Shown here in pieces: positions 12,507-26,786 of a stretch of 64,000 bases of DNA. Position 1 is the first letter of the stretch, and the number at the start of each line of letters is the position of its first letter. The translations under genes were made by a program, and so were the position numbers. The notes under the pieces are model-generated. The model was not told where the DNA came from. It searched no databases and saw only the letters and a program-made list of their open reading frames with translations. Where the stretch lies: contig NIVC01001390.1 in NCBI GenBank assembly GCA_002269645.1, positions 62,001 to 126,000 on the forward strand, given 5' to 3'. The DNA is from Macrostomum lignano (Eukaryota).

Positions 12507-14480
12507 TTAATCAAACCGACACAAATTCTTGAGACTAGCGCAACAATTCGTTTGCGTCTGGCCGCAGTAGCTCCTGCGCTGAGATTTTTGATCCGTGTTG
12601 CGCAGGTACTCGATGTAGGTTTTCCACCCCCCACATTGGTCGCCCCATATGTCGCCAAAGAAGCAGCTCTCGTCTGCAGCGGGTGCTGCTTCGTCGGCAA
12701 CGCACTGGCCGTCCCAATTGCAGCTCTTCTTGTTGCCACAGGGCGACCCGACTGGGGCGCGGAAGCCGGTGCTAGTTGTTCCGTGAGCGTGGTCGGCCTT
12801 TAAGAGGCAGTGCATTTTGGCGCACAGCAGAGCCGGGTTTGCTTTAACGTCCTCCGTCAAGAAAATGTTGCCGGGACTCGATGGGTAATTGAGACGGCAC
12901 ACCTGATCGAGGGACATGCGAGCTCCTTCGCGGACAGAGCTTGTCAGTTGGCTGATGGGGGTGCCTTGACGAGACTGCAGACACGCTGCTTTTCCTGGTT
13001 AGGCATTCAAATATTTTTGACGTATCAATGTTTTTCACTTCTTTGCGTCGAAGCTTAAGAAAAGCTCTGATTTCCAAATTAGACAATTCCTTGGAAAGAA
13101 AACAACTCAAAGAAACGCGAAAAGCTTACCGGAGTCGAGATAGGTCCTGATCTGCCTCACTGTGCATGGAGAGAACCGGTAGGAATTTGCTATGTTGCTG
13201 AGATCGTAGGATGTAGCGGCAGGCGACATTATGAACTTCAGATCCATTTCGCATCCGGGTTCGTTATTATCGTGACTGGCCCCCAAGTTGTGCGCGAGCT
13301 CGTGCGCGGCCGTCATCCAGCTGTGGAGGCCGGAATCTTCGACAACGCTGACCTTCGTCTCTTGGCAGGCGCTATTTTCAAAAGCGACTCCTGTCACCGC
13401 AGAGTTCTTGCCTAGCGAAATGTCTCTCCGGGTGAAGCCCATCACGTGATCGGCTCTGTCGCCTTTCGAGTACGCTCGGATTCTGCCGAGAGTGGCACCA
13501 CCATCGCTTGCTAAAAAATCAGTTTGAGAGAACACTTCAACGCTGAAATAGTTTTTAAATTATTCATTATTCAAATTACTACTCTCTCAACGCCTTTTCG
13601 CTGTTTTCGGACGCCCAGAACCCCCTGCAGCTAATTCGGGTATGTCAAGTAAGACAAAAGCACACTAAAGCGCGTACCATCAGCCGAGCTATCCGGAGGC
13701 ATCCACTTTGCATCGGCTTCAGTCTTGGCTACTGTTAACCCAATGCACCTGACACTGATTGACGGACTGCCGATGTTCCTGAAGACCGTGTCCATGCCAA
13801 TCACAATGTGAGAATAGTAGAAGTGCAGCTCAGTCAGGGCTTTGTCATCCGTACCGAAAATTGTCTTGAAAGCCTTCCAAACGGTGTGATCAATGAGGAT
13901 GTGAATCTCGACTTCGTATTCGGTAGCCTCTCGGTTCACTCGGCGTTTCTTGCGACTCAGCAACTGCTCGGGCTGCGTCATCCGCGTTTTGGTTTTGGAG
14001 ACGCGGTGCCCAGAGTCGCCGATCGGCTGGATGACATACGAGGTGCCTTTGTGCGTCACGTGACCGCTGATGCGCTTTGTGCCGTTCTCGTGTCGAACGC
14101 TGATCACTGACTTGCTATCAACGTTTCTGTAGTGAGCTTGATCTCCGTGTTGAGCTTGTCGGCCAGAGAACGTCCTGGAGACTCCACCGTCCGTCACAGT
14201 GACCACAGCGCCATCCAACGGAGCAGTCTTGGTCAGCGGGATGCGGACTTTCTTGTCGGTGTCGGGCAGCTGGAGCTCGATCTCCATGGAGGACGGGTGA
14301 GGTCCGTCACCGCTGGATTGCGTCACGGACACCGAGGCCTGGGCTGCCGCAGAGACGGCCAGAAATATAGCTAAAATATTGAGCACGTACGACTCGTAAA
14401 CATACGTAATCCTGAAGCATATGCAGTTGACTCCACAGAGCTTCTGTAAGTTCTGTGGTTAACTCACCTATTTTCAGCAT
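12507..14480 (-). CDS. Secreted reprolysin (M12B) ADAM/ADAMTS-like metalloprotease, paralogue A
   Basis: Exons 14480-14468, 14370-13678, 13510-13130 and 12994-12507, all GT-AG phase 1, giving an open frame. Signal peptide MLKIAIFLAVSAAAQA, furin site RKKRR, HELAHNLGASHD, Met-turn FIMSP, Cys-rich ADAM-type domain. Confidence 0.92.
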
Positions 14481-16334
14481 TTTCATCGGTTTTTTTTCGG
14501 TTTGCTGCCACGTGTGCGGGCACTGAAGCGTAAGATAGAGATTATTACATCGTTAATAGAAACATACCGGATAGAAAAATACAAAAGAGGAGAATAAATG
14601 CATAAAAAGAAAGACTAATCAGTCAAGGCGTGTCTGTTTTGGTAAAAAATATTGTGGCAATTTATTAATTATAAAGCTGCCGCAGCGCATGCAAGGACTA
14701 CTTAACTAACATACATAGTTGTCCTTGAGCGCATGTTGTTGTAGGACTAGTTAGTTGTGTTAGTGCTATTATGGGCTGTATCTGAATGAAGTTAATTTAC
14801 GATTAAACGAAACATTTATTGGAGAGCATGCATGTATTGTTATCGAAACTTATTAACAAACGCTGTATTAAATTGATTGGATAGAATTGATTGTACAAAA
14901 ACTTTTAGTTCGGATTGTATTGCTATAAAGTTCAAATTGAATGGGCTTAAGTATGAATAAAATGATTATCTTTAATACTTTTTTGCCAGTAGCGTTTTTT
15001 TAGTTATAACGCAAGATCTGTTCTCGCAGTGGAATGCGGACAATGTACGGAAGTGAAATTTCTATGTATTGAGTTTAACTTGTTTTAACTCGTGCTTGAA
15101 CAAGTGCTACCAGCTAGCTAGCTTTGGGTGGAGTTATGCTTGCCCAATCTATCATATTGATCCAGTTTTAGCTAGACTTGTCTCTATTATACTTAACTTT
15201 TTTTTCTCTCAAGAAGTTTTTGTTGAAATTAAAAAATTAAAAAAAACTCAGTCTCACCTCGATAGATTATTTCCAAGAAAATTCGAAAGTATCGAACAAT
15301 TATTCTCCAATGCTACAGAAATTCTTGTCTGTAATTTTTTTATTGCAGTCTACAAGCTCGTGAATACGAATTCTGATCGATGGTCGGTTTGACGAACCAC
15401 AAGTATAAATACTTTGATGCAGTGTTAAAAAATAATTAGTGCAAGTCAGGAAACGAAATGGATGTGTGGACGCTCACATATAGAAAATTGCATTCCCATG
15501 CGTCATGCATACTCTTCCCGGGTGCTCTGGACAGCTTCAAACTGATATACGACTCGTACGCTCGCTGTCAACGATATGTCAAAGCGTTTATACAGTGCGG
15601 CTATTTCAAACCTTTCAACAGTCTGTTGTATCATCAAGCATGAAAAATCCAGTCATTTAACCCTCTGAAACTTCTGCGAAGCAACTGATTTGCTAAAATG
15701 CTAACATTATAGAGTAGTAATATTCTTAAATTTTGAAATTTGGGAGTGCATAAAATTATACTCTACTAATCAAGAATGTTTATTGACTCGTTGCCTGATC
15801 GAATCCATCAAGCATGCTATCGATTTGAAATTTTGCCCTGCATCTTATGCTACAGCTTAAATTCGAACGTGTCGAAGTGTTCAAGAAAGTTCGACACGAA
15901 TTGAATTTTTTAAAAACGATCGACTTCAGTTGGAATAACAATCCCCGGAAATTGCTGGTGCTTGATTTTTTTAGTTTTAATGGCATTTATGAGACAGAGA
16001 AGATGCGCTCTCACGAACATTTTTTTTCGAAAATCACTAGTAGCGTCGTGGGTCGTGGAAGGGTAATTTATTATTTACGGAATTTAATATCCGGACTGGT
16101 AAGTTCTGGCATTTCAATGACTATAGTTGTCAAGTCCAAGCTGGCAATCGTTGTTGCCAAAGTCGTGGCCAGGAATTAATTGAGCTTAACCAATATCCGC
16201 TACAACTGCGATCAAAAGCATAAAAACGAAGACGGTCAGTGGTTGATCCTTGCCGATAAAGATAAGCCCACTTAAACCTTGTGTCTGAGTGGAACAGAAA
16301 CCTACAAATTGTCCTTTAGACCCGCGCTCTGAAA

Positions 16335-26700: not shown

Positions 26701-26786
26701 CGGAACTTCTGAAGCAAACTGGGATCAGAAGCGAGTCCAAATTGAATGCTGAGATAGCAAAAACTGCAGGAATCCACAAAGAGTAA
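23785..26786 (+). CDS. Secreted ~800-aa Lys/Leu-rich repeat protein (20-aa cationic amphipathic repeats plus ~44 12-aa helical repeats), unknown family
   Basis: Exon 1 23785-23934 MRLISIGGLALLLAVVACQATDLDVEEARES...ELD|gtgagt. Acceptor at 24477 precedes a 2.3-kb open frame ending at 26786. The junction is off by one base, so either a small missing exon or a homopolymer indel at ~24495-24505 is needed. Confidence 0.75.

What the first reader, a model, noticed from the sequence alone, without database searches (positions are those of the whole stretch)
12507..26786. Candidate secreted defence/toxin cluster: two proteases next to three acidic-propiece cationic precursors
Seen: five consecutive genes in 14 kb, all with signal peptides, including two divergent pairs. 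The three precursors start MR(F/L), have an acidic exon 1 ending in Asp at a phase-0 intron, and a cationic exon 2, yet their mature parts are unrelated. Known: anionic propieces neutralise cationic peptides until proteolysis, and metalloproteases can mature defence peptides. Inference: a reusable signal/propiece exon cassette with swappable effector exons, possibly co-expressed with and processed by the neighbouring reprolysins. This is my best candidate for an undescribed system in the window.
Basis: inference. Interest (0 to 1): 0.72.

Follow-up and report, generated by a model that had tools for sequence, protein, structure and literature searches.

The report
Flatworm gland proteases beside secreted orphans
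In the flatworm Macrostomum lignano, two metalloprotease genes from a larger tandem family, one of them reported in the prostate and pharynx, sit beside three orphan genes predicted to be secreted (a likely antimicrobial-peptide precursor, a small all-acidic peptide and a large protein with a predicted 12-residue helical repeat), and they are likely neighbours rather than one protease-and-toxin system.

Summary
All five genes are real and form two head-to-head pairs in Macrostomum lignano, but the finding is only partly right. The middle precursor (G4) has an acidic, not cationic, exon 2 (spliced joint in 3 of 4 RNA-type runs; database record). G3 and G5 are frameshifted in this window's copy and in frame in a sister copy. 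The proteases G1 and G2 are M12B reprolysins at the end of an array of about eight paralogues; the other six have no such precursors beside them. Published in situ probes matching G1 stain prostate, pharynx and testes, and G1 rises with mating group size, while G4 does not. G3 has its own furin-type sites, so the reprolysins are not needed to release its amphipathic cationic peptide. Ordinary alignments find no exon-1 homology, but a post hoc intron-anchored test gives a weak signal (z about 3), so an old shared first exon stays open. The oddest part is G5: 44 tandem 12-residue helices under purifying selection, with no homologue or solved-structure match found. The scan's notes showed nothing similar on other DNA.

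The parts
12507..14486 (-). G1: M12B reprolysin, 526 aa; exons 14486-14468, 14370-13678, 13510-13130, 12994-12507; signal peptide, Cys-free prodomain ending RKKR, HELAHNLGASHD, Met-turn, ADAMTS-type Cys-rich domain; Mlig001203
   Evidence: Joints; Pfam; motifs; record P0026; in situ primers match exactly at 13183, 13907 and 14095
16335..18227 (+). G2: M12B reprolysin, 533 aa; exons 16335-16347, 16428-17147, 17228-17608, 17743-18227; same intron pattern as G1 and 58-62% identical per exon (likely inverted duplicate); HELAHNMGSDHD
   Evidence: pN/pS 0-0.09 between sister copies where it could be computed
18784..19454 (+). G3: predicted antimicrobial-peptide-like precursor; exon 1 18784-18998 (signal + acidic), exon 2 19086-19454 (RFRR/RIRR, amphipathic Arg/Lys/Trp-rich part, Pro/Thr tail; net +22). 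Frameshifted near 18800 in this copy, in frame on C695
   Evidence: joint in 2 of 3 RNA-type runs, and the X19 contig follows the in-frame copy; hydrophobic moment 0.99, reached by 0 of 300 shuffles
21112..22086 (-). G4: 74-aa predicted secreted acidic peptide (net -12); exon 1 22086-21907, exon 2 21156-21112; Mlig004062
   Evidence: Joint in 3 of 4 runs; records P0038-P0040
23785..26786 (+). G5: exon 1 23785-23934 (signal + 30-aa acidic piece), exon 2 24478-26786; about 230 Lys-rich residues (net +50), then 44 tandem 12-residue helical units (25170-26753) with a recent 96-aa triplication. Phase-0 junction out of frame in this copy, in frame on C1630
   Evidence: pN/pS 0.18 (15 nonsynonymous, 25 synonymous codons); AlphaFold2 model of 12 units, pLDDT 85
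21603..21790 (.). High-copy interspersed repeat inside the G4 intron, flanked by CT-rich tracts; a frame over this intron region reads as a cationic peptide but is spliced out
   Evidence: Hundreds of divergent contigs pile up here in every run; frame translated

Best explanation
This is likely a neighbourhood of separately acting secreted-product genes, not a protease-plus-precursor system: G1 and G2 are reprolysin genes of a local tandem family, G4 encodes an acidic peptide, and G3 and G5 are predicted cationic precursors. Shown: gene structures, charges, motifs, paralogue map and frameshifts. Taken from a published table: G1 and its upstream paralogues are expressed in prostate and pharynx, and G1 rises with group size. 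Inferred: the proteases are activated by a furin-type convertase at RKKR and act in seminal fluid and pharyngeal secretion; G3 is held neutral by its acidic piece and cut by a convertase at RFRR/RIRR to release a membrane-active, probably antimicrobial, peptide; G5 is a large secreted cationic protein with a helical solenoid, probably a granule, mucus or membrane-binding component; G4 is a free acidic peptide. The window's G3 and G5 copies are probably null or mis-assembled copies of genes intact on sister contigs.
For: G4 exon 2 is acidic. Eight protease genes, one apparently partial, lie in C208:410-505 kb; G3, G4 and G5 have no tblastn hit there, and a crude signal+acidic scan found only G4 and G5 themselves. 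Two further protease loci showed no precursor-like long ORF in 10-kb stretches. G1 primers are listed as prostate;testes;pharynx and the upstream paralogue primers as prostate;pharynx. Classes differ: G1 Tail/Other with OvI_up (3 of 3 ids), G4 Non-Specific/Other with no social flag (4 of 4 ids). G3 has convertase motifs and an amphipathic helix. Standard exon-1 alignments with segment-wise shuffles give p 0.19-0.47 for all 6 protein comparisons, 0.23-0.85 for DNA and 0.10-0.58 for upstream flanks, while the G1/G2 control gives p 0.0005.
Against: The intron-anchored ungapped comparison of the last 30 residues gives sum-of-pairs p 0.003 (C695 G3) or 0.006 (window G3), with D-hydrophobic-D 29 residues before the intron in all three in-frame exons; none of 300 triples drawn from 20 unrelated acidic 30-mers reached z 2.7. 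G3/G5 reached p<0.05 in 6 of 12 gapped settings. Positional classes are coarse: a gene expressed in pharyngeal glands could be Non-Specific, so co-expression of G4 with G1 is not excluded, and G3 and G5 have no published expression ids. G5 and G4 show no furin motif in the parts scanned, so another protease may be needed for G5. No activity of any product was tested.
Confidence: 0.55

Rival explanations
1. G3, G4 and G5 descend from one signal + acidic first exon that was duplicated locally and now sits on three unrelated second exons. G4 would be the propiece-only member. The proteases are unrelated neighbours.
For: Same start (ATGCG), same exon end (Asp, phase 0) and D-hydrophobic-D at the same distance from the intron (0 of 20,000 shuffles, but the motif was chosen after seeing it; the neutral statistic of at least 2 invariant columns occurred in 786 of 20,000 shuffles). 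Triple z 3.05 or 2.68 against an empirical null of sd 1.0. G4/G5 DNA matches at 41 of 90 anchored positions against a null of 29, and offset 0 is the best of 25 offsets. G4/G5 lie head to head like the duplicated G1/G2.
Against: The test was devised after inspection and is one of about 20 tried. G3/G4 is not significant (p 0.20 and 0.47) and its best offsets are elsewhere. Offset 0 is only second best for G3/G5 and G4/G5 protein. The window's G3 copy lacks the motif at that offset. Signal peptides, upstream flanks and intron starts do not align. No fourth member was found (word-based searches that would miss 25% identity).
Confidence: 0.27
2. One reading: the five genes are co-expressed in one gland cell type and the reprolysins remove the acidic propieces to release defence or toxin peptides.
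For: Adjacency is kept on the sister contigs of the same genome. G3 and G5 have the acidic-then-cationic layout. G1 is expressed in glands. A seminal-fluid metalloprotease is required for processing other seminal proteins in Drosophila (PMC3257295, passages). G5 lacks a furin motif at its exon-2 start.
Against: G4 has no cationic part. G3 has its own convertase motifs. Six sister proteases have no precursor neighbours. G1 and G4 classes differ. G3 or G5 is frameshifted in two of three copies each while G2 is under strong purifying selection. Sister contigs are not independent species.
Confidence: 0.1
3. The whole block is a reproductive (seminal fluid) cluster, with G3 and G5 as fast-evolving prostate products rather than defence peptides.
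For: G1 and its paralogues are prostate-expressed and G1 is socially up-regulated. G3 differs between copies at 16 nonsynonymous and 5 synonymous codons. Tail-region orthogroups are enriched for signal peptides (53 of 173).
Against: G4 is not tail-class. G3's ratio near 1 also fits decay of the frameshifted copy. No prostate evidence exists here for G2, G3 or G5.
Confidence: 0.08

Closest known systems
M12B reprolysins; nearest solved structures ADAMTS-4, -1 and -5 (E 3e-13 to 4e-12)
   Same: Signal peptide, prodomain ending in a furin-type site, HExxHxxGxxHD zinc motif, Met-turn, following Cys-rich domain
   Different: No thrombospondin or spacer domain found by Pfam, no Cys in the prodomain, about 530 aa; close relatives were found only in Macrostomum-named or unnamed records (6 hits at E<1e-30 of 25)
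M. lignano prostate and pharynx transcripts RNA815_5875.1/.2 and RNA815_5404.2/.3 (Weber 2018; Arbore 2015; tabulated in Brand 2020)
   Same: Three primers match G1 exactly; the four 5404 primers tested match upstream paralogues exactly
   Different: In the passages and rows seen they are unnamed transcripts, not described as a tandem reprolysin family
Anionic-N-terminus, cationic-C-terminus antimicrobial precursors such as Hydra periculin-1 and arminin 1a (review PMC12466427, table passage; alpha-defensin exon layout recalled, from no call)
   Same: G3 has a signal peptide, acidic piece and amphipathic cationic helix; G5 has the same order
   Different: No sequence family hit; G3 has an added Pro/Thr tail; G5 is about 820 aa with a propiece far too small for net +85; G4 has no cationic part; no activity shown
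MgtE N-domain helical superhelix (Pfam PF03448)
   Same: G5 repeats score 59.5 bits against a cut-off of 25.9; short helix-loop repeats
   Different: G5 is predicted secreted and has 44 units; the fold searches listed no MgtE chain (best Foldseek E 0.31, best Z 2.3), so the Pfam hit may reflect repeat periodicity
Drosophila seminase / CG11864 astacin seminal-fluid cascade (PMC3257295)
   Same: Gland-made secreted metalloprotease with a removable propeptide in an ejaculate
   Different: Astacin (M12A) rather than M12B; no substrate is known for G1 or G2

Membership tests
Peptidase M12B (reprolysin): G1, G2 | HExxHxxGxxH(D) zinc motif and Met-turn | tested here: met
   HELAHNLGASHD/FIMSP and HELAHNMGSDHD/FLMSP
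Peptidase M12B (reprolysin): G1, G2 | Pfam PF01421 above curated cut-off | tested here: met
   35.6 and 34.9 bits against 20.8; 41.6 for the full G1 record
Peptidase M12B (reprolysin): G1, G2 | Proteolytic activity | not testable with these tools
   No assay
ADAMTS | Cys-rich domain after the catalytic domain | tested here: inconclusive
   PF17771 28.1 bits (cut-off 27.3) for G1 exon 4, 25 bits in the full record, no hit for G2 exon 4; aligns to ADAMTS-4
ADAMTS | Thrombospondin type-1 repeat and spacer | tested here: not met
   No such Pfam family in the full G1 record at E<=1; the gene ends about 60 residues after the Cys-rich domain
Acidic-propiece cationic antimicrobial precursor: G3 | Signal peptide + anionic piece + cationic amphipathic part | tested here: met
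   In-frame copy: exon 1 net -16, exon 2 net +20; hydrophobic moment 0.99, 0 of 300 shuffles
Acidic-propiece cationic antimicrobial precursor: G3 | Processing site between the parts | tested here: met
   RFRR at exon-2 residue 10 and an overlapping site at 13; cleavage itself not shown
Acidic-propiece cationic antimicrobial precursor: G3 | Antimicrobial activity | not testable with these tools
   No assay
Acidic-propiece cationic antimicrobial precursor: G4 | Cationic mature part | tested here: not met
   Exon 2 net -2
Acidic-propiece cationic antimicrobial precursor: G5 | Short mature peptide balanced by the propiece | tested here: not met
   Exon 1 net -5 against exon 2 net +85 over 769 aa
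MgtE N-type superhelix: G5 repeat | Same fold | tested here: inconclusive
   Pfam above cut-off; not listed by either fold search
M. lignano prostate-limited seminal fluid candidates (Mlig-pro): G1 | Expression limited to prostate glands | tested here: not met
   The published row for primers matching G1 reads prostate;testes;pharynx; probes may cross-react with paralogues
Shared exon-1 cassette: G3, G4, G5 | Homology among first exons beyond composition | tested here: inconclusive
   Negative in standard alignments; weakly positive when anchored at the intron

The most novel reading that the evidence does not exclude
One ancient signal + acidic first exon was reused on three unrelated second exons: a convertase-released antimicrobial helix (G3), a lysine-rich protein with a 44-unit, 12-residue helical solenoid unlike any solved fold found here (G5), and almost nothing (G4). 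G4, transcribed head to head with G5, would be a free propiece that neutralises G5's large positive charge in trans inside secretory granules.
Probability: 0.15. Interest if true: 0.68.

Novelty: new member of a known kind. Interest (0 to 1): 0.34.

Why it matters
It names anonymous prostate and pharynx transcripts of a sexual-selection model as a tandem reprolysin family, which gives a direct RNAi target for seminal-fluid proteolysis in a hermaphrodite. G3 is a concrete antimicrobial-peptide candidate in marine flatworms, which a 2025 review calls largely unexplored for such peptides (PMC12466427). G5 is an orphan secreted repeat protein under purifying selection whose predicted 12-residue helical repeat matched no solved structure here. 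The proposed five-gene processing system is unlikely.

Tried and rejected
G4 cationic exon 2: all minus-strand acceptors were listed; RNA contigs and the database record pick the acidic one. Homologue searches found nothing for G5 exon 2 (0 of 7996 candidates, lengths 422-1344) or G3 exon 2 (0 of 15, lengths 67-214), and only G4's own cluster for G4 (1 of 2); longer and shorter forms were not searched. Eleven weak in-genome matches to the G5 repeat: the 4 loci fetched were translated minisatellites. Single-sequence AlphaFold2 of G5 exon 2 was unusable (pLDDT 44). Fold searches with the 12-unit model gave no match at E<=0.001 or Z>=5; this does not show the fold is new. The profile search against solved sequences gave only E 0.07-0.9 noise. 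The Atlas search with G4 gave one feature hit at 0.76 and short helical matches, a lead only; G5 could not be searched there. No RNA holder was on record as RNA; spliced joints absent from the DNA run are the basis for treating those contigs as RNA, and contig depths were not used to rank genes. Run X15 showed no G4 joint and X14 no G1 or G3 joint; absence from contigs is not evidence. G2's transcript id could not be fixed: the other two M. lignano ids in orthogroup OG0000142 are both Non-Specific (6 of 6 rows), but that orthogroup omits known G1 paralogues, so G2 may be neither. Mlig004062.g4 sits in a mixed 41-gene orthogroup (30 of 41 rows seen) whose nature I could not determine. Supplements of PMC7806878 held none of six ids; those of PMC5946080 were unreadable; the arminin paper was not held. 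No complex prediction was run.
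Full report
Setting. Named database hits identify the organism as the flatworm Macrostomum lignano. The window is G000:C1390:62001-126000, and the block has sister copies on C695 and C1630; C208 repeats its left part. The window follows C1630 closely over G2-G3 and C695 over G5, so the three contigs are not three independent versions.

Gene structures. G1 (minus strand, 14486-12507) and G2 (plus, 16335-18227) have four exons each at matching positions, 58-62% identical per exon. 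All six introns are joints in RNA-type contigs and none in the DNA run. Both proteins have a signal peptide, a Cys-free prodomain ending RKKR, the HExxHxxGxxHD motif and a Met-turn, pass the Pfam reprolysin cut-off and are closest to ADAMTS-4, -1 and -5 among solved structures, without thrombospondin repeats. G3 (18784-19454) is spliced 18998 to 19086 in 2 of 3 RNA-type runs. G4 (22086-21112) is spliced 21907 to 21156 in 3 of 4 runs, giving a 74-residue peptide of net charge -12; the database holds three such records. This removes one of the three cationic precursors. G5 (23785-26786) was not covered by reads.

Broken copies. In the window G3 has a one-base frameshift early in the signal codons, shared with C1630; the C695 copy is in frame and the X19 RNA contig follows it. 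G5's phase-0 junction is out of frame in the window and on C695 and in frame on C1630; weaker splice sites nearby could keep the frame. G5 exon 2 differs between window and C1630 at 15 nonsynonymous and 25 synonymous codons (pN/pS 0.18), so the long frame was under selection through most of their divergence. G3 differs from C695 at 16 and 5 codons, which fits either decay of the window's copy or fast evolution.

The proteases. The G2 catalytic exon has 24 matches among 35 candidates in the genome. On C208:410-505 kb there are eight protease genes, one apparently partial, with G1 and G2 about 50 kb (65 kb on C1390) beyond the other six. G3, G4 and G5 have no hits beside those six, and a crude scan for signal + acidic first exons over about 220 kb of overlapping sequence returned only G4 and G5 (it cannot see split signal exons or frameshifted copies). 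In the supplement of Brand et al. 2020 (PMC7336406; rows seen; main-text passages), Mlig001203 carries the in situ probes RNA815_5875.1/.2, listed as prostate;testes;pharynx and prostate;pharyngeal glands. Three of those four primers match G1 exactly. The four RNA815_5404 primers tested, listed as prostate;pharynx, match the upstream paralogues; Arbore et al. 2015 (PMC4490696, passages) report a weak prostate signal for the candidate of that class. All three Mlig001203 ids are up in groups against isolated worms; the four Mlig004062 (G4) ids are Non-Specific or Other with no social flag. I assume the ids of that table equal those of the protein records; this is checked by primers for G1 only. 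The classes are coarse and the probes may cross-react, so this weakens co-expression without excluding it. Six large supplementary files of that paper and the Weber 2018 supplements (PMC5977470: passages, file list only) were not read and could hold data on G2, G3 or G5.

The precursors. Each has only its three sister copies in word-based genome searches and no outside homologue. G3 exon 2 starts with RFRR and RIRR, followed by an amphipathic helix (moment 0.99, 0 of 300 shuffles) and an Arg/Trp/Gly-rich stretch. That a furin-type convertase cuts R-x-R/K-R is established knowledge, recalled; it makes the reprolysins unnecessary for G3. The layout resembles Hydra periculin and arminin as tabulated in a review (PMC12466427, passages). 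G5 exon 2 has about 230 Lys-rich residues and then 44 units of 12 residues, conserved most at second codon positions (0.38, 0.57, 0.30). Twelve units fold confidently as helix-loop repeats (pLDDT 85, pTM 0.75, using an alignment of the protein's own repeats), with no match among solved structures despite a Pfam MgtE_N hit.

The cassette question. Local and global alignments with shuffles that keep signal and acidic parts apart found nothing. On inspection, the three in-frame first exons share D-hydrophobic-D 29 residues before the intron. An ungapped intron-anchored score gives p 0.003-0.006 for the triple, 0.004-0.01 for G3/G5, 0.04 for G4/G5 and 0.2-0.5 for G3/G4; unrelated acidic triples never reached this level in 300 draws from 20 segments, but slide controls favour offset 0 clearly only for G4/G5 DNA. 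The test is post hoc and one of about 20, so I rate a shared old exon at roughly one in three, and a genome-wide reusable cassette as unsupported.

Literature and earlier notes. Full-text searches for Mlig001203 (0 papers), RNA815_5404/5875 (1 paper), Macrostomum with antimicrobial peptide (15 of 16 listed) and Macrostomum with ADAMTS, reprolysin or M12B (15 of 434 listed) showed no title or abstract describing this locus; subscription journals are mostly not covered. PMC11398382 (passages) shows a single-nucleus atlas exists under other ids. PMC3257295 (passages) gives the Drosophila parallel. The scan's own notes held nothing near, similar or matching; the 8 of 21 genome-wide notes shown concerned mobile elements.

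Verdict. These are real secreted-product genes, with two ordinary reprolysins, one plausible new antimicrobial precursor, one acidic peptide and one unusual orphan repeat protein. A dedicated protease-precursor system is unlikely (about 0.1). Interest 0.34; new members of known kinds.

Noticed in passing
window 27650-47780 (+): An inscuteable homologue begins right after G5: LGN-binding domain hit at 27650-28108 and Insc_C hits at 45322-45651 and 47298-47780 (E 1e-37).
   Followed up: partly
window 38-2788 (-): Maverick/Polinton-like ORFs: A32-type ATPase (weak) and a phospholipase A2-like ORF (PF08398, E 2.6e-9), followed by an assembly gap at 3022-3550.
   Followed up: partly
window 7100-10800 (+): GC-rich retroelement with a reverse transcriptase frame (PF00078, E 2e-4) and overlapping ORFs; absent at the matching place on C1630.
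   Followed up: partly
window 18743-18783 (+): A pyrimidine tract ending in CAG lies 21 bases before the G3 ATG and about 350 bases after the end of G2 transcripts; it could be a 5' UTR intron or a trans-splice acceptor of a G2-G3 operon.
   Followed up: no
window 21603-21790: Very high-copy short interspersed repeat in the G4 intron, abundant in RNA-type contigs; it looks tRNA-derived by eye, though ARAGORN calls no tRNA.
   Followed up: partly
G000:C208:422562-451495 and G000:C1390:7125-12607: Six more reprolysin paralogues in tandem; the five G1-like ones share about 85% identity with G1 in exon 2 but only 52-55% in exon 4, which suggests gene conversion or domain-specific divergence.
   Followed up: partly
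G000:C1630, upstream of G1 (stitched positions about 10308-11012): An insertion of about 700 bases between G1 and G2 on C1630 only; one RNA815_5875.2 primer matches there and nowhere in the window.
   Followed up: no
window 12510-12695 (-) and 18030-18224 (+): The last 60 or so residues of G1 and G2 form a small six-Cys module with no Pfam hit; by recall it resembles PLAC or ShK-type modules.
   Followed up: partly
window 13900-14000 (-): G1 exon 2 differs from all three other copies by 6-7 gapped bases, and a second database record reads differently there; possibly small compensating indels in this copy.
   Followed up: no
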